A DNA stretch of 22,155 bases from a virus: UHGV virus genome UHGV-0059692, one strand, 5' to 3'. The position numbers were made by a program, and so were the translations under genes. The first letter of the stretch is position 1; each line of letters starts with the position of its first letter. Below the pieces are notes generated by a model. It ran no database searches. It was not told the DNA's origin and was given only the letters and a program-made list of their open reading frames with translations. Of the stretch, positions 2,866 through 18,107 are shown piece by piece.

Positions 2866-3126
2866 ATGAAAAAACTAATTGTTGCTTGCATCTTATCGGC
2901 TCTGTCTTTTGGTGCTTTTGCTTCTGTAAATTCGACAGATAAGAGTGATGCTGGCACTGCTCAATATGGTGATACTAGCCTTGATAACCAACGTTCGAGT
3001 TATTTCAATACTGACTCATGGAAAGAAAAACAACTACAAGGTAAAATTATTGACAGTGAATGTAATTTACCTATCCATTTTTCTGGTGTAAATGATGGGT
3101 GTGAAAAAAATAAAAACAATGCATAA
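2866..3126 (+). CDS. Small secreted protein (86 aa precursor) with two cysteines; moron between J and tail fibre
   Basis: ATG at 2866 preceded by AAGGTG (2854-2859); N-terminus MKKLIVACILSALSFGAFA looks like a Sec signal peptide; opposite strand to all neighbours; AT-rich. Confidence 0.6.
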   Translation: MKKLIVACILSALSFGAFASVNSTDKSDAGTAQYGDTSLDNQRSSYFNTDSWKEKQLQGKIIDSECNLPIHFSGVNDGCEKNKNNA

Positions 3127-8957: not shown

Positions 8958-9662
8958 TTAACCTACCTTGCTGGAACCAGGGAAGCAGGAGATAGGCAGT
9001 GCTGCAGGACGCGGGAAACGTAAACGACAACCGCTAAGTCGGTGACTGCATTTGTCTAACGTTGGATTACTTGTCGGTACATCTTTATCCGTTGCGACCG
9101 GGCCGCCAGAATACATGCACCCGTCACCTCTGTATTGCCACTGGCAAACGTCTGCGAGGATGGTGCGCCCAGGAATGACGGCCTTGTCTGCATCAATTGG
9201 CGTTGACAGTTCATACTGAACCTGATCCGCCGTTTCTTCGCTCATGGACTCCACGACGTAAAAAGACACAGCTTCAATAGATGGATCTGCGTCGGGGTTT
9301 CCGTTAGGGAAGTTAACGGCGTCAAGATATTTCACCTCCACCTGGCGGCGCGTAACCTTCATTCCTCTAAGGTCGTTAAAATCGTTGTTCATCCCCGTAA
9401 TGAGTCCGCCGATATTGGCTACAACCATTTGAGGCCGCGAATAAACACCCTCATTTTTCATTTCGAAGCCCGTCGCCTCGATCGGGTAGCTGTTGTAAGC
9501 TACTCCCTTCCAGATAACCTGGCCGTAATAGCCGTTCGCGCCGGAATGGAAGCGGATAACCTCGCCTCCCAGGGGAGTAAGGTCCAGTTCAAATAAGTCA
9601 ATGACCGCGCCAACTCCGGCATCGACGGAATCAATAATCATCTCTCTCGGAATATTGCGCAT
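8958..9662 (-). CDS. L: Minor tail protein L (lambda gpL-like)
   Basis: 234 aa; YLDAVNFPNGNPDADP and the Cys-rich C-terminus (DKCSHRLSGCRLRF) match recalled lambda gpL (FLDAVNFVNGNSYADP, DKCSKCLSGCKFRN); AAGGTGAG upstream. Confidence 0.9.
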   Translation of the reverse strand: MRNIPREMIIDSVDAGVGAVIDLFELDLTPLGGEVIRFHSGANGYYGQVIWKGVAYNSYPIEATGFEMKNEGVYSRPQMVVANIGGLITGMNNDFNDLRGMKVTRRQVEVKYLDAVNFPNGNPDADPSIEAVSFYVVESMSEETADQVQYELSTPIDADKAVIPGRTILADVCQWQYRGDGCMYSGGPVATDKDVPTSNPTLDKCSHRLSGCRLRFPRPAALPISCFPGSSKVG

Positions 9663-9716
9663 TTTCTCACCTTGTCATTTTGTGATCTGCGTCACGCTAA
9701 ATCATACCAAAATGGA

Positions 9717-9745
9717 TTGATCGTGGTTTTTACAATATGTATATT
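9717..9745 (+). promoter_or_regulatory. Putative sigma70 promoter for the plus-strand cassette
   Basis: TTGATC (9717-9722), 17-bp spacer, TATATT (9740-9745), in the divergent intergenic region between L and the cassette. By eye only. Confidence 0.35.
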
Positions 9746-9791
9746 TTACTCAAACGAAGGGGAAGTTAACAAAATGGCGCGGAGATGCGTT

Positions 9792-9980
9792 ATGACTGAA
9801 AAGCTATGGAAGTTGACGGTATTCATGACAGACGGTAGGGAAAAGGTTATCGCCATGTATGACGACGAGGGGGAAGCATTGGTTGACGCGCTTTTACTTG
9901 CTGAGGATGACCGCCTTTTGGGATACCAGATCGAACCTGTCAAATATGAGGCTAACAAAAATGAAAAAATACAGTCTTGA
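9792..9980 (+). CDS. Small acidic protein (62 aa), cassette gene A
   Basis: ATG 9792 with GGAG 7 nt upstream (alternative ATG at 9774); Asp/Glu-rich; its N-terminal half is paralogous to the N-terminus of gene B. Confidence 0.55.
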   Translation: MTEKLWKLTVFMTDGREKVIAMYDDEGEALVDALLLAEDDRLLGYQIEPVKYEANKNEKIQS

Positions 9981-10308
9981 TGTGTGGTTAAGTGGTAGCA
10001 AGGAGTGTTTCGGATTATTTGATAGCGAAGAAGTAGCCCTGGAAGAAGGCAGGATTCTTGAATGTAGTTTAGGCCATCCAGTGAAATATGCTGCTAATCC
10101 GGTACAGATAGTTGATGAGGTGGAAGATATGAACCCGAAAGATATTAATGTTAACTTCAATGTTAATTTTGCAGACTCTATGGATCAGTCTTGCCCTGGT
10201 GAAATACACGCAAAAGGTTTCCCGGCTGATGATCCTGATGCAAAACGCGAATACGAAAAAGCGGCAAAAGATTTCTGTATCGACAACCTGGGCGCGTTCA
10301 ATAAATAA
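9961..10308 (+). CDS. Acidic protein (115 aa) with four cysteines, cassette gene B
   Basis: ATG 9961 preceded by GAGG; overlaps gene A by 20 nt in another frame; N-terminal module resembles gene A; no family recognised. Confidence 0.6.
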   Translation: MKKYSLDVWLSGSKECFGLFDSEEVALEEGRILECSLGHPVKYAANPVQIVDEVEDMNPKDINVNFNVNFADSMDQSCPGEIHAKGFPADDPDAKREYEKAAKDFCIDNLGAFNK

Positions 10309-10317
10309 GGCGGCAAT

Positions 10318-10566
10318 ATGGCGCGGCGCAATAACGGTGACTATGTGTACACGTTGAAACAGGCCGCCCGCCTTATCGGTTATCATGAGCACGAATTTAT
10401 TGATTTGCTGATTGAGCGCGGGATTTTATACCAGGTCTGCTTAACGCTGTACCCGAAAGCAAAATACCTACAGGAAAAGCTATTCATTATCATGACGGAT
10501 GAAAATCAGGTTAATCATTCATTCGTCACTGATAAGGGCGTTAATTATCTGCGTGATAACCTATAG
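10318..10566 (+). CDS. Small DNA-binding-like protein (82 aa) resembling the ANT/KilAC antirepressor C-terminal domain, cassette gene C
   Basis: YTLKQAARLIGYHEHEFIDLLIERGILYQ followed by YPKAKYLQEKLF and VTDKGVNYL, the pattern I recall for KilA-C/ANT domains; starts 10 nt after gene B. Confidence 0.55.
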   Translation: MARRNNGDYVYTLKQAARLIGYHEHEFIDLLIERGILYQVCLTLYPKAKYLQEKLFIIMTDENQVNHSFVTDKGVNYLRDNL

Positions 10567-10576
10567 GTGACAGATT

Positions 10577-10693
10577 ATGAAAATAGAAGTTTTGGCACTA
10601 ATCGTGATGGGATTTATAGTATTCGGTGTTCATGCTGTAGATCTGGACTGGAAAACGATAGCAGAAAATATAGCGTTAATGGAAATGGAATAA
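10577..10693 (+). CDS. 38-aa hydrophobic peptide, cassette gene D
   Basis: Not in the ORF track (too short). ATG 10577 with AGGTGA 6 nt upstream; MKIEVLALIVMGFIVFGVHAVDLDWKTIAENIALMEME has one hydrophobic helix then an acidic tail; terminator follows directly. Confidence 0.45.
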   Translation: MKIEVLALIVMGFIVFGVHAVDLDWKTIAENIALMEME

Positions 10694-10698
10694 TAATA

Positions 10699-10725
10699 AC
10701 CCCGCTTCGCGCGGGGTCGTTTTTA
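10699..10725. terminator. Intrinsic terminator ending the plus-strand cassette; possibly also active on the minus strand
   Basis: Stem accccgc (10699-10705) / gcggggt (10711-10717), then T-run 10720-10724; the reverse complement is followed by TTATTATTATT. Confidence 0.65.
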
Positions 10726-10908
10726 TACGCCATCAAGTAAGAATAAAACTTCCTTGCCTTCCCTTGATCTGCATCCAACATAACCGTCGCCAACATCATG
10801 AAGATACCAGGTCTCACCATTATCAGCTTTTACAGTAAGGTCGTTTATTTCGTAGTCGTCAAACAATGTAAAAGCTCCAGTGCGGTCCACTACACAAATA
10901 GCATACAT
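10723..10908 (-). CDS. Hypothetical small protein (61 aa) translationally coupled to M
   Basis: ATG 10908 preceded by GGAGGGG 5 nt upstream, directly after the M stop codon; no lambda counterpart at this position. Confidence 0.5.
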   Translation of the reverse strand: MYAICVVDRTGAFTLFDDYEINDLTVKADNGETWYLHDVGDGYVGCRSREGKEVLFLLDGV

Positions 10909-10920
10909 ATTGCCCCTCCA

Positions 10921-11274
10921 TTAATTGACAACTTGTTCAAACGTTGCATTCAGCGTGCATACCGGGCCGTCTTTCGTCATGCTCCATTTTCGGCATACAA
11001 AAAGCCTTTGCACTCCGTCCGTTGATGGCGTCCAGTAAAACGCCTCGACCGCGCAACGTGCTCTTAAAAATGCGTCAACCTGGAGAGCCACGTTTCCGGC
11101 GTCACCATATCCGGCGCTCGTACCTTTAAAGACCAGTGTGTAGCTATCGAGCAAAGGATTGATCCCTTTAACCTGCCTTTGCTCGTAGTTGTCGCCCAGC
11201 TTAATGACAGACACGTTAGGCTCGCTGTTTACGCTATAGCTTCTTTGCGGTTTCCATCGGAATACTTCCGGCAT
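10921..11274 (-). CDS. M: Minor tail protein M (lambda gpM-like)
   Basis: 117 aa; N-terminal FRWKPQ and C-terminal ATFEQVVN match recalled lambda gpM (FRWKVKP, EFEQVVN). Confidence 0.9.
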   Translation of the reverse strand: MPEVFRWKPQRSYSVNSEPNVSVIKLGDNYEQRQVKGINPLLDSYTLVFKGTSAGYGDAGNVALQVDAFLRARCAVEAFYWTPSTDGVQRLFVCRKWSMTKDGPVCTLNATFEQVVN

Positions 11275-11441
11275 AAATCCCCCTACAAGTTACATTTTGT
11301 GTGTATCTTTACGCGCTTATACGCGAAAAATGAGATGTATATCACATGAATTATACCTAGTTTTCAAAATGGCTTCACTTTATGAACTCCATATTGTATA
11401 CAGAAAACAAATGAGAAAGACGTTGCACAAAGGGGGATGTT

Positions 11442-11696
11442 ATGAAACTGGTAGCGATTGACAAAAACCTGAAAGCACAGAAAAACGCACCTGAGCATGT
11501 AATCAAAAAAGCAAAAGATCTTCTGAGCGCGTTTTTAAGAAAGGATGTAGCGCCCAAAAAATTGAAAGACGGATACGGCTACGCCTTCCGCGCCAACCTT
11601 GATTGGCGAGTATACAGCCAGGATCTGAAAGCGTGGGTAATCGTTGAACATCATAAATTTAATGAATTATCTGGCGTGCGCGGTTGCCATAAGTGA
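11442..11696 (+). CDS. Hypothetical lysine-rich protein (84 aa); speculative RelE/ParE-like toxin fold
   Basis: ATG 11442 with AAGGGGGA upstream; opposite strand to flanking H and M; C-terminal pattern YAFRANLDWRVYSQDLKAWVIVEHHK loosely recalls RelE/ParE-family beta-strand motifs. Confidence 0.5.
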   Translation: MKLVAIDKNLKAQKNAPEHVIKKAKDLLSAFLRKDVAPKKLKDGYGYAFRANLDWRVYSQDLKAWVIVEHHKFNELSGVRGCHK

Positions 11697-11704
11697 GGCG
11701 GGAT

Positions 11705-11797
11705 ATGGAGGACGATAAATTCACCTGGCGTGAGATCTGGAACATCTGGCAAGTAATGTTTGCTCGCAGCTACATAGCAAGAAACGGAAGATTGTAA
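11705..11797 (+). CDS. Possible 30-aa Trp-rich mini-ORF
   Basis: Not in the ORF track. ATG 11705 with GAGG 5 nt upstream, overlapping the stop of the 84-aa gene; MEDDKFTWREIWNIWQVMFARSYIARNGRL. May be chance. Confidence 0.2.
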   Translation: MEDDKFTWREIWNIWQVMFARSYIARNGRL

Positions 11798-11815
11798 TTT
11801 GCGGAGGAAAATAAA

Positions 11816-11992
11816 ATGAAAGTCACTGCAAATAAAAGCAACGTCAAACGCATGGCCTGGATCGTAAAATGGATGGACACGAAAGGCGATACATACACAG
11901 AACCGTTTTTTAGATATACTGACGCAGTGTTCGCTAAAAGCGTAAGAGGCTGGAAAATTGAAAGAGGATATACAAGTTTTGAGAATGAATAA
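11816..11992 (+). CDS. Hypothetical small protein (58 aa)
   Basis: Not in the ORF track. ATG 11816 with GGAGGA 8 nt upstream; followed immediately by a terminator hairpin; MKVTANKSNVKRMAWIVKWMDTKGDTYTEPFFRYTDAVFAKSVRGWKIERGYTSFENE. Confidence 0.45.
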   Translation: MKVTANKSNVKRMAWIVKWMDTKGDTYTEPFFRYTDAVFAKSVRGWKIERGYTSFENE

Positions 11993-11997
11993 AAGAT

Positions 11998-12031
11998 AAC
12001 CCCGGCATTGTTCCGGGGTTTTGTTTATTTG
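11998..12031. terminator. Intrinsic terminator for the plus-strand small ORFs, overlapping the tape-measure stop codon
   Basis: Stem aaccccgg (11998-12005) / ccggggtt (12013-12020), loop cattgtt, then ttttgtttattt on the plus strand; a weaker U-tract on the minus strand. Confidence 0.6.
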
Positions 12032-14367
12032 CGGCGCGGTTGCAACATTCCGCCAGGTCTTTGAGATTCCCTTGTTATCATTTTCATGGCTACACGTTCC
12101 ATTGTTAATTCAAGTCTGCGGCTGTCTTCGTCGCTGAATCCGTTCGTGGTCTGAATGCTGATACTGACAGGCATACTAATACCGCCACCGCCGCCAATAT
12201 CACGGCCCGGAATAACTCTGCCGTTCTCGCCAGGAATCATATATTGATTCCCGTTAGGCGTCTGGAATAGCTCCGTCCTGTTGTTTTCCCCGACACGGTA
12301 CAAGTTGCCACCAATGACGCTACCACCATTAAAGCGCCTGCCACCGAAGATGGATGTTGCCAGAGACATGATCGCAGTGAGTGCCGCAGAGCCAGCCGCC
12401 GCCCAGCTACCGCCAGTTGATGCTGCTGTTGCCGCCGCTGCCGGGGCCGCTGCCGCAGCGATGCTACCCTGAGCGGCTACCGCACCTGCCGTTGTGCTGG
12501 CCTGCGTTGCCTTGCTTTGTGTCTCCATCATGATTTGATCTGCTATCCAGTTGGCGGCTATGTCAGAAAGCCTGTTGCCGATGTTCCCTAGTATATTGCT
12601 CCCTAAGTTAGCAAAAACATCGCTCAATGATTGAGTGCCGTTAAGCAGGCCAACAAGCGCATTGCTCATGCCACCTTTAAGGCCATTAACGCAATCACCG
12701 ATAAGGCCGTTAGTGTCGCTTTGCGCCTGCCACTGCTCCCATTTCAGATCGCGGATCTGCTGCTCATAGGCTAACAATTCCTGTTTCTGTTGTGCTTCTG
12801 TAGCGCCCAGGTCGATAAGCATTTGCTTACGGACGGCCCATTCATTTTGTGCCTGCTGGATGGGGTCAACCTCGCCTTTTAGCTGGTCCATCGGGCTAAC
12901 TATTTGCGACCATTTGTCACGCAGTTCATCTACCGGGATCTGCGCTAATTCTTCTTTCAGTTCCTTGCCGATCCCTTTTTGCGCGGCGCGGTACTCAAGG
13001 AGCGTGATTTTACCCTGGGCAAATGCAGCATCAATGGCCTTGCCGTTCTCCAACGCTTTGCGCATGGCGGCGGCGTCTTTGTTGTACTGATCAGAAACGC
13101 TTATACCTTTGTCACCAAGCCGATCAGCTTCCGATTTCTTCTCTTTTTTCTGTTTTTTCGGCTTGTCTACTGGCTTGTCGAATCCGGTAATCGCTCCGTC
13201 ATTGGCAGCATTCTGTTCATTTTTCCTTGCTTCTTCTGTAGCCTGGATTGCTGCGGTCAGATCATCCTGTAGTTGCATGACCTTGCCAACGGTCTTCCCG
13301 TATTTCTTCTCGTAGTTGCTGTTATATTCGTCGGTTTGCTCTCCTACTACCTCCTTCACCCATTTATAGGCGTCCATTAGTGCCTTGATTGGCGTCACCA
13401 TTGCGATGATCTTCTCGGCTACCTCGCCAGCCTTGATTCTGACATCTTCAAACATGTCGATGAATTCGCCACCAGCCGTCTTCAGGGTGTTAAAGCAGGT
13501 TTTAGCGAAATCAGTGCCTTCACCTAAATCCTTAACAGCTTTCGTTACAAAATCGATACCAGCAACAACCGTATCGGATACACCGAAAAGATCATCCAAT
13601 TGCTCAACAAGTCCCATAACCTCGACTTTAAGCTCATTCAGGGCCATGCCGGATGTGCGCGGCAACTGCGCAAACTTCTCGTTTGTTTCCTGCGTAGCCG
13701 CCTGGATTGCGTTAACCATCCTTTCTGCCGTGATCTTACCGTCCAGCATTTCGGCGCGGAATTGGCCCATTGATAACCCCATCTGGCGTGCCATTGTCTG
13801 TACGATGGTCGGGGTGTTTTCTAACAGGCTGTTGAATTCTTCAGCGCGCAACACGCCACCGTCGATAGACTGACGGAATTGACGCATTGAGTTTGACATC
13901 TGCTCCGCTGACGCGCCGCCCAACGCCCCCATTTTCTGAATCGTACCTACCAGGTTAAGCAATTGCCCTTCCGTAGCGGAGGTGTTTTTTAGTGAGATAG
14001 CCAGGCCTTGCCATAATTCGCCAGTATCTTTCAGGCTCTGCCCCGTCTCCCTGGATATTTCTTTCAGACCATCAAAAACCCGCCCGGCAGATTCCGCGTC
14101 GCCTGTAAGCATTTTGATTTTGACGCGTAGCATTTTGGCCTGCTCTGCCATTTCCATAAACTGTCTAACGGCCTCGGCAGCAATTAGCAGATGGATAACC
14201 CTGGTCAGTGCTTTGATTGATGTTTTCAGTGTGTTTACCTGGCGATCGGCCTGTTTAGCACCGCGCTCTATACGGTCAAAGGCCTGGTCTGCCTGTCGTT
14301 GTGCTACAAGAAGTTGTCCTGTTTTTGCGTCAACTTCGTAATAAATTGTGCCTACACTGGTAGCCAT
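12025..14367 (-). CDS. H: Tail tape measure protein
   Basis: 780 aa, largely helical, with a Gly/Ala-rich hydrophobic C-terminal region; sits between the chaperone position and M; GAGGT upstream. Confidence 0.9.
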   Translation of the reverse strand: MATSVGTIYYEVDAKTGQLLVAQRQADQAFDRIERGAKQADRQVNTLKTSIKALTRVIHLLIAAEAVRQFMEMAEQAKMLRVKIKMLTGDAESAGRVFDGLKEISRETGQSLKDTGELWQGLAISLKNTSATEGQLLNLVGTIQKMGALGGASAEQMSNSMRQFRQSIDGGVLRAEEFNSLLENTPTIVQTMARQMGLSMGQFRAEMLDGKITAERMVNAIQAATQETNEKFAQLPRTSGMALNELKVEVMGLVEQLDDLFGVSDTVVAGIDFVTKAVKDLGEGTDFAKTCFNTLKTAGGEFIDMFEDVRIKAGEVAEKIIAMVTPIKALMDAYKWVKEVVGEQTDEYNSNYEKKYGKTVGKVMQLQDDLTAAIQATEEARKNEQNAANDGAITGFDKPVDKPKKQKKEKKSEADRLGDKGISVSDQYNKDAAAMRKALENGKAIDAAFAQGKITLLEYRAAQKGIGKELKEELAQIPVDELRDKWSQIVSPMDQLKGEVDPIQQAQNEWAVRKQMLIDLGATEAQQKQELLAYEQQIRDLKWEQWQAQSDTNGLIGDCVNGLKGGMSNALVGLLNGTQSLSDVFANLGSNILGNIGNRLSDIAANWIADQIMMETQSKATQASTTAGAVAAQGSIAAAAAPAAAATAASTGGSWAAAGSAALTAIMSLATSIFGGRRFNGGSVIGGNLYRVGENNRTELFQTPNGNQYMIPGENGRVIPGRDIGGGGGISMPVSISIQTTNGFSDEDSRRLELTMERVAMKMITRESQRPGGMLQPRRK

Positions 14368-17540: not shown

Positions 17541-17718
17541 AGCCGTAACTCCAGCTAATGACCTTTGGACGAGTTTTCGCCACGCGCGGGCAAAGAATTA
17601 CCCATAAGCCAGCATCATTGAGGTAGGCCGCCACCTGACGTCCGCTATCCGTTTTAACCCACACGCGGGTAAATAGTTTCGGCAATACTGGATTTGGTAA
17701 TGTCAGGTCGTTCCACAT
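17533..17718 (-). CDS. Hypothetical small protein (61 aa) in the connector cluster
   Basis: ATG 17718 with AGGAGG 8 nt upstream (the track begins at a GTG at 17724); translationally coupled to neighbours. Confidence 0.45.
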   Translation of the reverse strand: MWNDLTLPNPVLPKLFTRVWVKTDSGRQVAAYLNDAGLWVILCPRVAKTRPKVISWSYGYE

Positions 17719-17720
17719 TG

Positions 17721-18107
17721 TCACATCCTCCTGCTCTTACCAATCCACAGCCCGGCGTGCGCGGTGTTTTCTGGATCTGGTGGAATTAGTTCGGCTGTAC
17801 AATGGTGTTTGTCCAGTGAGTAAAGCAACGAATAGGCCGCCTTCCATCGCTTATTAAAATCGACATAGCGGTAAGACTGGCTTGCACCGTTCGGACCAGT
17901 CTGCGAGGAAACGTATTTATCAGCCTGGCTGAGTCCTAACAGGCCAATGAGATAAAGCTGAATCAATGTTGCAGTGGAGGACGGATAATTGGCATCAAGG
18001 CATTCATTAACGCTATTTGCCTGCTCCACCAGCAAAGATAAAACCACGTCTGGTATTTCAATCCCCTGGCTTTCGAGATATTCCCGCGCCTGTTGTGTGG
18101 TAACCAT
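17721..18107 (-). CDS. Putative head-tail connector protein
   Basis: Start taken as ATG 18107 (MVTTQQ) with GGAGAA upstream; the track's longer ORF would start inside the upstream terminator loop; first gene after the capsid terminator. Confidence 0.5.
   Translation of the reverse strand: MVTTQQAREYLESQGIEIPDVVLSLLVEQANSVNECLDANYPSSTATLIQLYLIGLLGLSQADKYVSSQTGPNGASQSYRYVDFNKRWKAAYSLLYSLDKHHCTAELIPPDPENTAHAGLWIGKSRRM

What the first reader, a model, noticed from the sequence alone, without database searches (positions are those of the whole stretch)
10318..10693. Antirepressor-like DNA-binding protein followed by a 38-aa hydrophobic peptide
Gene C has the helix-turn-helix-like segment and the Y..K..YL ... 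VT.KG..YL pattern I associate with KilA-C/ANT domains, but as a standalone 82-aa protein. Gene D is a single hydrophobic helix with an acidic tail, the size class of membrane-active type I toxins or small exclusion peptides; alternatively its N-terminus is a signal peptide releasing an 18-aa acidic peptide. Regulator plus membrane peptide is a recurring architecture for toxin or exclusion modules.
Basis: inference. Interest (0 to 1): 0.5.

Follow-up and report, generated by a model that had tools for sequence, protein, structure and literature searches.

The report
Phage accessory operon: KilAC protein, membrane peptide
Both genes are real: a small stand-alone "antirepressor-type" (KilAC) protein and a 38-residue membrane peptide sit at the end of a four-gene accessory operon wedged backwards between tail genes of a temperate E. 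coli phage. They are neighbours rather than a matched regulator/toxin pair, and their function is untested.

Summary
Gene C (10318-10566, 82 aa) passes the Pfam ANT/KilAC threshold. It is 35% identical over 72 residues to a bona fide KilAC domain, and its model resembles phage antirepressors and MerR/excisionase-type winged helices. Gene D (10577-10693, 38 aa) is a real gene: pN/pS is 0.17-0.22 in frame and about 1 out of frame. It has one hydrophobic helix and an acidic tail.

The window is the tail region of an mEp021/mEpimmI-type coliphage. C and D are the last two genes of an operon A-B-C-D on the strand opposite the tail genes. The operon has a conserved sigma-70-like promoter with a CRP-like site, an intrinsic terminator and lower G+C than its flanks, so it is moron-like.

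The proposed C-D pairing is not supported:
- Next to a nearly invariant C, D is replaced by unrelated 23-24-aa hydrophobic peptides or joined by extra ones.
- D has lost its start codon in one clade while C stays intact.
- D's family also occurs in contigs of a large phage distantly related to rV5-like myoviruses, without C. There it lies directly after a homologue of gene B's conserved C-terminal domain, as a self-contained promoter/two-gene/terminator unit.

Most likely these are host- or envelope-directed accessory proteins, with D a small inner-membrane protein of the superinfection-exclusion type. This is a new member of a known kind, of moderate interest.

The parts
9681..9696 (+). CRP-like site TGTGA-N6-TCACG upstream of the operon promoter
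   Evidence: This is the only match to TGTGAN6TCAC in the window (0.18 expected; 14 of 100 shuffles have at least one match). In 13 distinct related loci the half-sites are invariant while the N6 spacer varies. CRP binding is inferred, not shown.
9717..9745 (+). Candidate sigma-70 promoter of the A-B-C-D operon: TTGATC, 17 nt, TATATT. An alternative -10, TACAAT, lies at 9731-9736.
   Evidence: Consensus scan. The L-A intergenic region is nearly invariant across loci. Variation falls within the -35/-10 spacer and after the presumed transcription start.
9792..9980 (+). Gene A: 62 aa, acidic (pI 4.4), function unknown, phrog_29559
   Evidence: The GGAGG-type RBS before ATG 9792 is conserved across loci; the one before ATG 9774 is not. 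A shows a weak hhalign match to the N-terminal domain of B (E 0.014, hhalign probability only 3%). A is present in all loci inspected.
9961..10308 (+). Gene B: 115 aa, acidic, phrog_38567. The N-terminal domain (residues 1-56) evolves fast. The C-terminal domain (residues 57-115, coordinates 10129-10305) is highly conserved: ADSMDQSCPGEIHAKGFPADDP..EYEKAAKDFCIDNL.
10318..10566 (+). Gene C: 82-aa stand-alone KilAC/ANT domain protein
10565..10570 (+). Shine-Dalgarno AGGTGA of gene D, overlapping the stop codon of C
   Evidence: Read from the sequence. It is conserved in the mEp phages.
10577..10693 (+). Gene D: 38-aa hydrophobic peptide (type I). It has a TM or signal-like segment at residues 5-21, V-H-A at 18-20 and an acidic tail VDLDWKTIAENIALMEME.
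   Evidence: It has no Pfam, PHROG or PADLOC family; NCBIfam Phr_nterm scores 14.1 bits against a cut-off of 25. It is not annotated in the mEp021 record or by PGAP.
10699..10727 (.). Bidirectional intrinsic terminator shared by the operon and the convergent 61-aa gene/M transcript
   Evidence: It is annotated as a terminator in the mEp phages. A similar hairpin sequence ends the B-C-domain/D unit in L102.

Best explanation
The finding is the 3' half of a four-gene accessory (moron-like) operon, A-B-C-D. The operon is inserted antisense between tail genes L and M of an mEp021/mEpimmI-type temperate coliphage.

Shown:
- The operon has its own conserved sigma-70-like promoter preceded by a CRP-like site, its own intrinsic terminator, and lower G+C than the flanking tail genes.
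- C is a stand-alone KilAC (ANT) domain with a winged-helix-like fold.
- D is a protein-coding small hydrophobic peptide under purifying selection.
- C and D are not an obligate pair. D's conserved genomic companion is the C-terminal domain of gene B. That domain and D travel together, without C, as a promoter/two-gene/terminator unit in contigs of a large phage distantly related to rV5-like myoviruses.
- The slot after C is a swap-in site for at least three unrelated tiny single-helix peptides.

Inferred:
- Host RNA polymerase transcribes the operon independently of the late operon, possibly with cAMP-CRP activation.
- D inserts into the inner membrane N-in/C-out, with its acidic Trp-rich tail in the periplasm. 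There it acts as a small membrane protein that interferes with an envelope step. The most likely role is superinfection exclusion at the DNA-entry stage, as for HK97 gp15, which is also a tail-region moron.
- C acts on a host process, as other KilAC-only proteins and domains do (cell-division block by CreP and by the phi11 Gp07 KilA-C domain; SOS damping by the AriS KilAC domain), or it binds DNA.
For: Context: about 80% nucleotide identity to the mEp phages, with the cassette lying between tail genes L and M.

Operon signals. G+C is 42.0% in the cassette against 46.5-51% in the flanking tail genes.

C is a KilAC domain. Its fold.

D is coding and hydrophobic. The type II replacement peptide is also under purifying selection (0.33 in frame, 0.69 and 1.57 out of frame).

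Modular slot and decay cases.

B-C-domain plus D without C:
- L059/L060: full-length B followed by a 47-aa D homologue.
- L102: 60-aa B-C-domain followed by a 45-aa D homologue, with TTGACA-17-TAAGAT upstream and a terminator downstream.
- L131: 50-aa B-C-domain, then D, then a lipoprotein gene.
- L102 shows only short, distant matches (5-7% of the query at about 66-73% identity) to rV5-like/Vequintavirinae phages.

B's C-domain is constrained at the protein level.

Literature:
- HK97 gp15 is a small inner-membrane exclusion protein encoded by a tail-operon moron (PMC3594210).
- A stand-alone KilAC protein, CreP, is bacteriostatic and causes filamentation (bioRxiv 10.1101/2024.01.05.574328).
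- The phi11 Gp07 KilA-C domain alone inhibits E. coli growth (PMC5944126).
- The AriS KilAC domain alone suppresses SOS (PMC9043618).
Against: - No expression, localisation or phenotype data exist for any of the four genes. The function is argued by analogy.
- D has no sequence relationship to gp15/YebO, Imm, SieA or any family.
- The cassette is present in every group member examined, unlike a classical presence/absence moron.
- mEpimmI phages already carry a lipoprotein exclusion system (PMC11893012).
- D's hydrophobic stretch is short (about 17 residues) and ends in a canonical V-H-A. It could be a cleaved signal peptide rather than an anchor.
- D also occurs in contigs of a large phage whose only known relatives are virulent myoviruses. 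That argues against a purely lysogen-benefit role, although virulent phages do carry exclusion genes such as T4 imm and T5 llp (from general knowledge).
- C lacks the first ~22 positions of the KilAC profile and scores only 5 bits above threshold. The activities reported for other KilAC domains may not transfer.
- The CRP site rests on a consensus match and its conservation pattern only.
Confidence: 0.42

Rival explanations
1. C (a DNA-binding regulator or antidote) and D (a membrane-active toxin or exclusion peptide) form a two-gene toxin/immunity or abortive-infection module.
For: The two genes are adjacent and translationally close in all mEpimmI-type loci. D is the size and hydrophobicity of type I toxins. 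Loss of D with C retained is tolerated, as expected if D were the toxic partner. C has a winged-helix-like fold.
Against: - D is exchanged for unrelated peptides beside an almost invariant C.
- D's family occurs without C in another phage lineage, paired instead with the B C-domain.
- No antisense RNA or Rfam family was found.
- D is the last SD-led cistron of an operon, not an independently controlled toxin gene.
- All D types are acidic and lack the basic flanks common in pore-forming toxins.
- There are no PADLOC hits.
Confidence: 0.12
2. C is a genuine antirepressor. It would be the induction switch of these prophages, whose repressor lacks a RecA cleavage site and which UV does not induce. 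It would be expressed from a cAMP-CRP-dependent promoter, and D would be unrelated cargo.
For: - ANT/KilAC domain and 'antirepressor' structural neighbours.
- Annotated as a putative antirepressor in mEp021 and listed as a core gene of the group (PMC11893012).
- UV non-inducibility and the missing cleavage site are reported in PMC11893012.
- Conserved CRP-like site.
Against: - Characterised KilAC antirepressors have an additional N-terminal domain (AntA/B, Bro-N, KilA-N or pRha). In AriS that N-terminal domain, not KilAC, regulates the phage (PMC9043618).
- C is only 82 aa and lacks the start of the domain.
- It lies in the late region, antisense to the tail genes, far from the immunity region.
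- I saw no LexA-box-like sequence in the promoter on reading it.
Confidence: 0.1
3. D's hydrophobic segment is a cleavable Sec-type signal peptide. The active product would be a free 18-aa (or 25-aa in the long allele) acidic, Trp-containing periplasmic peptide.
For: - The n-region contains Lys, the h-region is about 14 residues, and V-H-A lies at -3 to -1.
- The juxtamembrane motif D-W-x-x-I-A-x-N is conserved while the C-termini are allele-specific.
- There is a weak Phr_nterm match.
Against: - The hydrophobic segment is the most conserved part of the protein (pN/pS 0.12, invariant G12 and G17). That is unusual for a mere export signal.
- The interchangeable type II and III peptides have their hydrophobic helix at the extreme C-terminus and cannot be signal peptides.
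- The Phr hit is far below its cut-off (14.1 against 25 bits).
- No signal-peptide predictor was available.
Confidence: 0.12
4. D is a dispensable, decaying or non-functional ORF that persists only because it sits between gene C and the terminator.
For: Start-codon loss (ATG to ATA) in a whole clade, a frameshift in L015 and an aberrant L038 allele. D is not called by PGAP or in the mEp021 record.
Against: - Frame-specific purifying selection is as strong as for gene C.
- SD and start codon are conserved in most loci.
- Homologues are retained at about 60-70% identity in a different phage lineage with their own promoter and terminator.
Confidence: 0.05

Closest known systems
Stand-alone KilAC-domain proteins, e.g. 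CreP of Acinetobacter baylyi ADP1 (bioRxiv 10.1101/2024.01.05.574328). Also the isolated KilAC domains of phi11 Gp07 (PMC5944126) and Listeria AriS (PMC9043618).
   Same: C is a single KilAC/ANT domain with no N-terminal partner domain. It has the A-[KR]-x-L and T-x-K-G motifs (A17-R-L-I-G and T71-D-K-G74 in gene C), is of phage origin and is about 80-100 aa.
   Different: C is shorter (82 against 103 aa) and lacks profile positions 1-22. It has no CRISPR/creA context. It forms a very narrow family: only 7 clusters at 90% identity, all 82 aa and, where named, all from E. coli. Toxicity, filamentation and SOS effects are untested here.
Classical two-domain phage antirepressors and KilA proteins (P1 KilA/Ant, AriS, Gp07). 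They combine an N-terminal AntA/B, Bro-N, KilA-N or pRha domain with a C-terminal KilAC domain.
   Same: The C-terminal KilAC domain is homologous: 35% identity to the KilAC domain of a 264-aa protein.
   Different: C has no N-terminal domain. It is not in an immunity region and has no SOS box. It sits in a tail-region cassette on the opposite strand.
HK97 gp15 moron: a small inner-membrane superinfection-exclusion protein of the YebO family (PMC3594210; Cumby et al. 2012, as cited there).
   Same: Both are small membrane proteins encoded inside the tail-gene cluster of a temperate siphophage, in a unit with its own promoter and terminator and atypical composition.
   Different: There is no sequence similarity and no Pfam hit of any kind for D. 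This cassette is antisense to the tail genes, has four genes and is present in all group members. No exclusion phenotype has been tested.
Type I toxins of E. coli (Ibs, Ldr, Hok, TisB, ShoB, DinQ)
   Same: Size class (19-50 aa), a single hydrophobic helix and frequent prophage location. Type II peptides at this slot (e.g. MEVIIIIIGLLCILLSTL) look Ibs-like in composition.
   Different: No antisense RNA gene, no independent promoter or long structured 5' UTR, and a canonical SD within an operon. The peptides are net acidic. No Rfam family matches.
Small bitopic regulators of inner-membrane proteins (MgrB, AcrZ, MgtS and similar); comparison from general knowledge
   Same: They are 30-50 aa with one TM helix and a short periplasmic or cytoplasmic tail. 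This size and predicted topology match D.
   Different: There is no sequence relationship, and no target is known for D.

Membership tests
Pfam PF03374 ANT / KilAC domain | Profile HMM score above the curated gathering threshold | tested here: met
   30.1 bits against 25.3, E 6.5e-7. Precomputed PF03374 hits on 6 of 7 homologue clusters.
Pfam PF03374 ANT / KilAC domain | Reciprocal similarity to an undisputed KilAC domain | tested here: met
   A family profile searched against 1.84 billion representatives hits P0009 at E 7e-5. P0009 scores 99 bits on ANT. Pairwise: 35% identity over 72 aa, E 3e-12.
Pfam PF03374 ANT / KilAC domain | Coverage of the whole domain | tested here: not met
   Only profile positions 23-105 of 108 are matched. 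The first ~22 positions are replaced by 11 unrelated residues.
Phage antirepressor (functional class) | Two-domain architecture: N-terminal AntA/B, Bro-N, KilA-N or pRha plus C-terminal KilAC | tested here: not met
   The 82-aa protein has a single domain.
Phage antirepressor (functional class) | Binds and inactivates the prophage repressor | not testable with these tools
   Needs pull-down or induction assays.
CreP-like stand-alone KilAC toxins | Single KilAC domain with A-K-x-L and T-x-K-G motifs | tested here: met
   A17-R-L-I-G and T71-D-K-G74 read from the sequence. The motifs are as described in bioRxiv 10.1101/2024.01.05.574328.
CreP-like stand-alone KilAC toxins | Growth arrest or filamentation on expression | not testable with these tools
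   Requires an experiment.
Type I toxin-antitoxin | Small hydrophobic toxin peptide (<60 aa) | tested here: met
   38 aa, GRAVY 1.08, negative insertion-energy sum.
Type I toxin-antitoxin | Overlapping or adjacent antisense RNA antitoxin | tested here: not met
   No Rfam match at E<=1 in 9400-12200. Only 5 nt separate D's stop from the shared terminator. Only weak 9/12 promoter-like matches lie on the minus strand inside C.
Type I toxin-antitoxin | Independent toxin transcript with translation-inhibitory 5' UTR | tested here: not met
   D is the last cistron of A-B-C-D, with an SD 6 nt before its ATG that overlaps C's stop codon.
Moron (Juhala/Hendrix sense) | Own promoter and terminator, located between late genes | tested here: met
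   Conserved promoter-like region and intrinsic terminator between tail genes L and M. The signals are sequence-based only.
Moron (Juhala/Hendrix sense) | Nucleotide composition different from the neighbours | tested here: met
   G+C 42.0% against 46.5-51%.
Moron (Juhala/Hendrix sense) | Present in some relatives and absent in others | tested here: inconclusive
   The A-B-C core is present in all ~80 related loci. Only the peptide slot and the insertions between B and C vary. The B-C-domain/D unit does appear in an unrelated phage.
Moron (Juhala/Hendrix sense) | Expressed from the repressed prophage | not testable with these tools
   Needs RNA-seq of lysogens.
HK97 gp15 / YebO exclusion proteins | Sequence homology to YebO/gp15 | tested here: not met
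   D has no Pfam, PHROG or NCBIfam family at E<=1.
HK97 gp15 / YebO exclusion proteins | Blocks DNA entry of superinfecting phage | not testable with these tools
   Needs plating and injection assays.
Sec-type cleavable signal peptide | Positive n-region, 7-15-residue h-region, small residues at -3 and -1 | tested here: inconclusive
   K2 (but also E4), h-region V5-G17, and V18-H-A20 with allowed substitutions across alleles. No predictor was available. The hydrophobic part is the most conserved part.
Phr / AimP-type secreted signalling propeptides | Family profile match; cognate TPR-type receptor next door | tested here: not met
   TIGR04429 Phr_nterm scores 14.1 bits against a cut-off of 25. 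The neighbouring genes have no TPR or receptor domain.

The most novel reading that the evidence does not exclude
D is a secreted propeptide. After cleavage at V-H-A it would release an allele-specific 18-25-aa acidic peptide (C-termini ...ALMEME, ...LMYINY or ...LMHMNF). This peptide would act as a phage-encoded periplasmic or extracellular signal or decoy in a Gram-negative host. The operon would be nutritionally gated by cAMP-CRP, and the stand-alone KilAC protein would link it to the lysis-lysogeny switch of prophages that UV cannot induce. That would amount to a peptide-based decision system in a coliphage.
Probability: 0.03. Interest if true: 0.85.

Novelty: new member of a known kind. 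Interest (0 to 1): 0.35.

Why it matters
- Small membrane proteins of phages are systematically missed. D is unannotated in RefSeq and in the mEp021 reference record.
- This locus offers a compact, experimentally tractable case: a conserved slot where at least three unrelated 23-45-aa single-helix peptides are swapped or stacked.
- It also offers a two-gene unit (B C-domain plus D) shared by a temperate siphophage and a large phage distantly related to rV5-like myoviruses.
- If D or its alternates block phage DNA entry, they would add new inner-membrane exclusion factors. They would also help explain cross-immunity patterns in a phage group common in the human gut.
- If C behaves like CreP, Gp07 or AriS, it would extend KilAC-only effectors to coliphages.
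- Practically, the result corrects the attractive but unsupported reading of C and D as a regulator/toxin pair.

Tried and rejected
- Ipe. I suspected that the haemolysis-inducing Ipe protein of mEp021 (ORF-4, with products of 83/82/77/72 aa, PMC6379469) was gene C or the 77-aa insert next to it. The mEp021 record places ipe at 17562-17795 in the early region. Rejected.
- Solved structures by sequence for C. Only a spurious hit at E 0.09.
- PADLOC, NCBIfam and Pfam for A, B and D. Nothing above threshold.
- Rfam over 9400-12200. Only two sub-threshold chance hits.
- Profile search of C against 1.84 billion representatives. Besides the family itself there was one true KilAC protein and one low-complexity false positive, P0008.
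- Species-representative genomes scanned for the B C-domain. None found.
- Metagenome scan for the B C-domain. 22 loci; 21 checked and all mEpimmI-type, the remaining one a 1.4-kb fragment.
- Megablast and tblastn of the alternative-context locus against phage and plasmid collections. No close relative. Only short, distant rV5-like similarity.
- The afdb50 fold library was unavailable.
- A vs B N-domain paralogy. Only a weak hhalign signal (E 0.014, probability 3%). Left as a possibility.
- LexA box in the operon promoter. None seen on reading the sequence.
Full report
**1. What is at the coordinates**

The two ORFs are exactly as described.
- Gene C runs from 10318 to 10566 and encodes 82 aa.
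- Gene D runs from 10577 to 10693 and encodes 38 aa: MKIEVLALIVMGFIVFGVHAVDLDWKTIAENIALMEME.
- D has an AGGTGA Shine-Dalgarno 6 nt upstream of its ATG; this overlaps C's TAG stop.
- D ends in three consecutive TAA codons.
- An intrinsic terminator follows 5 nt later (10699-10717 plus a T-run). Its hairpin is -18.3 kcal/mol with z -3.1.

**2. Genomic setting**

- The window is the head-tail region of a siphophage. It contains a Mu-F-like protein, a DUF6260 protein, a tail tube protein, the tape measure, M, L, K, I, J and a Laminin_G-domain protein. All of these are on the minus strand.
- Coordinates 9600-11400 are about 80% identical to the Mexican E. coli phages mEp021, mEp013, mEp515 and mEp554, and in part to mEp010, mEp044 and MagusPhagus. 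This is the 'mEpimmI' group of Nus-dependent temperate coliphages (PMC11893012).
- In all of these, a plus-strand cassette lies between tail genes L and M, and a second one between M and the tape-measure gene.
- About 34 of 5426 complete E. coli genomes carry this region.

**3. The operon**

C and D are the last two cistrons of a compact four-gene unit:
- A: 9792-9980, 62 aa.
- B: 9961-10308, 115 aa.
- C: 82 aa.
- D: 38 aa.

Its signals are as follows.
- The L-A intergenic region is almost invariant in 13 distinct loci. It contains TTGATC-17-TATATT (9717-9745).
- Upstream lies TGTGA-N6-TCACG (9681-9696). Its half-sites never vary while its 6-nt spacer does.
- That pattern occurs once in the window, against 0.18 expected; 14 of 100 shuffles have at least one match.
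- The second cassette has an analogous TGAGA-N6-TCACA (11331-11346) with the same conservation pattern in 39 distinct loci.
- G+C is 42.0% and 40.9% in the two cassettes, against 46.5-51% in the flanking tail genes.

Own promoter, own terminator, odd composition and a position between late genes are the hallmarks of a moron. This one points against the late operon. CRP control is an inference from sequence only.

**4. Gene C**

Sequence evidence:
- Pfam ANT/KilAC (PF03374) scores 30.1 bits against a gathering threshold of 25.3. The match covers profile positions 23-105 of 108.
- PHROG 5689 (unknown function) matches at 1.5e-21.
- The family is very narrow. There are seven clusters at 90% identity among 5.8 billion clusters, all 82 aa.
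- A family profile searched against 1.84 billion representatives finds only itself, one false positive and P0009.
- P0009 is a 264-aa protein whose C-terminus is a clear KilAC domain (99 bits). C is 35% identical to it over 72 residues, including the A-[KR]-x-L-G and V-T-x-K-G motifs.

Structure evidence:
- The AF2 model has pLDDT 73.6. Its order of elements is strand, helix-turn-helix, short helices, beta-hairpin, helix.
- The top Foldseek hits in the viral structure library are 'antirepressor' proteins, with TM 0.72 and E about 2e-3.
- Individually these scores are weak, but they agree.

So C is a stand-alone KilAC domain that lacks the domain's N-terminal start. DNA binding is plausible but unproven, and the protein is charge-neutral (pI 6.8).

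Published work on KilAC alone points to host-directed activities:
- CreP, a 103-aa single-KilAC protein, is bacteriostatic and causes filamentation (bioRxiv 10.1101/2024.01.05.574328).
- The KilA-C domain of phi11 Gp07 retains growth inhibition in E. coli (PMC5944126).
- The KilAC domain of Listeria AriS suppresses the SOS response, while its N-terminal domain regulates the phage (PMC9043618).

**5. Gene D is real**

Conservation:
- Thirty-five related loci carry it, as 28 distinct nucleotide sequences.
- There are two alleles. They share residues 1 to about 33 and differ at the C-terminus. The 38-aa form ends ...IALMEME; the 45-aa form ends ...MAHAHPMSLMYINY.
- pN/pS is 0.19 and 0.17 for the two alleles, and 0.12 over the first 20 codons. 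The shifted frames give about 0.6-1.7. Gene C gives 0.15.
- A database search finds only 38-49-aa relatives of the same family, plus a few longer gene calls (61-72 aa) that extend or read through the same ORF.

Annotation:
- D belongs to no Pfam, PHROG, PADLOC or NCBIfam family.
- It is absent from the mEp021 record and from PGAP annotation.

Predicted properties:
- The hydrophobic stretch V5-V21 should insert into a membrane.
- K2 at the N-terminus and a -4 tail predict an N-in/C-out orientation. This is an inference from the positive-inside rule.
- V-H-A at residues 18-20 fits a signal-peptidase I site, and allelic substitutions there are the permitted ones.
- However, the hydrophobic segment is the most constrained part of the protein. 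This favours a functional transmembrane helix over a disposable signal.

**6. C and D are not a matched pair**

Three lines of evidence speak against the pairing.

(a) The slot after C is modular.
- Besides type I (D), many loci carry instead an unrelated 24-aa type II peptide, MCEHYVLEVIIIIIGLLCILLSTL or MFEHYAVEAIIVMIGVAVLLVATL. Its pN/pS is 0.33 in frame, against 0.69 and 1.57 out of frame.
- Others carry a 23-26-aa type III peptide, M(NRV)DEVIENVLVVAGAIAIVYAFLN, in front of type I. Some add a 67-aa soluble protein before that.
- C stays 73-99% identical throughout.
- All three peptide types combine one hydrophobic helix with a short acidic segment.

(b) D is dispensable.
- One clade has ATG changed to ATA at the start codon, followed by further changes (G12W, E4K).
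- L015 has a +1 frameshift.
- C is intact in all of these.

(c) D's family occurs outside mEpimmI phages, in contigs of a large phage.
- L102/L104 comes from a 121-kb contig whose only matches in the phage collection are short and distant (5-7% of the query at about 66-73% identity), to rV5-like myoviruses of about 131-140 kb. L059, L060 and L131 share its neighbouring genes.
- No KilAC gene is present in any of these. D is always immediately preceded by a homologue of the conserved C-terminal domain of gene B: the full-length B in L059, a 60-aa version in L102 and a 50-aa version in L131.
- In L102 the pair is a self-contained unit: TTGACA-17-TAAGAT with an upstream TG, the B C-domain, D, then a terminator whose hairpin resembles the window's.
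- In L131 a lipoprotein gene follows D.

B's C-domain is constrained at the protein level (pN/pS 0.14 with pS 0.42). Its N-domain evolves fast (0.45). The conserved genomic partner of D is therefore B's C-domain. C, and in some relatives a 77-aa gene or an HNH endonuclease, lies between them in the mEpimmI lineage.

**7. Most likely mechanism**

Shown:
- The anatomy above.
- The coding status of C and D.
- KilAC membership of C.
- The mobility of the B C-domain/D unit.

Inferred:
- Host RNA polymerase transcribes the operon independently of late transcription, possibly under cAMP-CRP.
- D and its alternates are small inner-membrane proteins that expose an acidic segment to the periplasm.
- Their position in the tail cluster, their occurrence in both a temperate phage and a phage lineage related to virulent myoviruses, the lipoprotein neighbour in L131, and the precedent of HK97 gp15 (PMC3594210) make interference with an envelope step the best single guess. 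The most likely form is superinfection exclusion at DNA entry.
- C probably acts on a host target, as other KilAC-only proteins do, or binds DNA.

I put about 0.4 on this composite. The anatomical part is much firmer than the functional part.

**8. Rivals**

- C as a true antirepressor for these UV-non-inducible prophages: 0.10. It is interesting because the group's repressor lacks a cleavage site (PMC11893012). It is weakened by the single-domain architecture and the location.
- D as a cleaved signal peptide releasing a free periplasmic peptide: 0.12.
- D as a decaying ORF: 0.05.

Type I toxin-antitoxin membership fails on the antisense RNA and independent-transcript criteria.

**9. Novelty and verdict**

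- C is already annotated as a KilAC-domain protein and listed as a core gene of the group.
- D, its alternates and the B C-domain/D unit are undescribed. They still fit a known kind: small membrane proteins in phage accessory cassettes.
- The finding is a new member of a known kind and of moderate interest. Its main value is as a tractable small-protein locus and as a correction of the regulator-plus-toxin reading.

Noticed in passing
window 11272-12024 (plus strand): A second opposite-strand cassette lies between tail gene M and the tape-measure gene. It contains an 84-aa ParE-like protein (11442-11696; PF24732, E 4.5e-7) and small ORFs at 11693-11797 and 11816-11992. It ends in a bidirectional terminator at 11998-12020. 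Most relatives have a 51-aa first gene (MKRYV...) before the ParE-like gene. The window, L042 and L043 lack it, so the ParE-like gene directly follows the promoter.
   Followed up: partly
window 11331-11346: A CRP-like TGAGA-N6-TCACA lies upstream of the second cassette. Its half-sites are conserved and its spacer varies across 39 distinct loci, mirroring the site at 9681-9696. Both backward-facing cassettes may be under cAMP-CRP control.
   Followed up: partly
window 10723-10908 (minus strand): A 61-aa gene (phrog_3249, E 7e-21) lies between M and the shared terminator, on the tail-gene strand. It is conserved in all relatives. PGAP did not annotate it in E. coli strain 190.
   Followed up: no
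window 10699-10717 and 11998-12020: Both cassette terminators score as terminators on both strands and sit inside the tail-gene cluster. Late transcripts must read through them, and through about 1 kb of antisense cassette, to express M and L-K-I-J. This presumably needs the group's N/Q-type antitermination. Late transcription would also be antisense to the cassettes.
   Followed up: no
window 9961-10128 versus 9792-9980: The fast-evolving N-terminal domain of B (pN/pS 0.45) and gene A share a strand-strand-helix-strand pattern and a weak hhalign match (E 0.014, probability 3%). They may be paralogues. Both are strongly acidic (pI 4.4).
   Followed up: partly
L102 2382-2831; L059 3001-3490; L131 2517-3098: In contigs of a large phage distantly related to rV5-like myoviruses, a homologue of B's C-domain and a D homologue form a stand-alone promoter/two-gene/terminator unit. 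In L131 an 82-89-aa lipoprotein gene (lipobox LAGC) follows D.
   Followed up: partly
L001 3228-3461, L052, L051 (relatives): The B-C junction is an insertion hot spot. mEp021 and L052 carry a 77-aa gene (mEp021_72) there. L051 carries an HNH homing-endonuclease-like gene there.
   Followed up: no
window 2866-3126 (plus strand): Downstream of J, on the opposite strand, there is an 86-aa protein with a clear N-terminal signal peptide (MKKLIVACILSALSFGAFA/SVN). It sits roughly where the mEpimmI paper places its exclusion lipoprotein genes. Homology to those was not checked.
   Followed up: no
L056 1993-2148 (E. coli strain 190, NZ_CP020520.1): RefSeq names the 51-aa gene A homologue (WP_086611599.1) 'transporter'. 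This looks like a misnomer for a small acidic soluble protein.
   Followed up: no
L019, L030, L032, L034-L036, L143, L146, L147, L149: A whole clade carries ATA instead of ATG at D's start, with the reading frame otherwise open. Some members have additional changes (G12W, E4K). This could be recent pseudogenisation or very low-level non-canonical initiation.
   Followed up: partly
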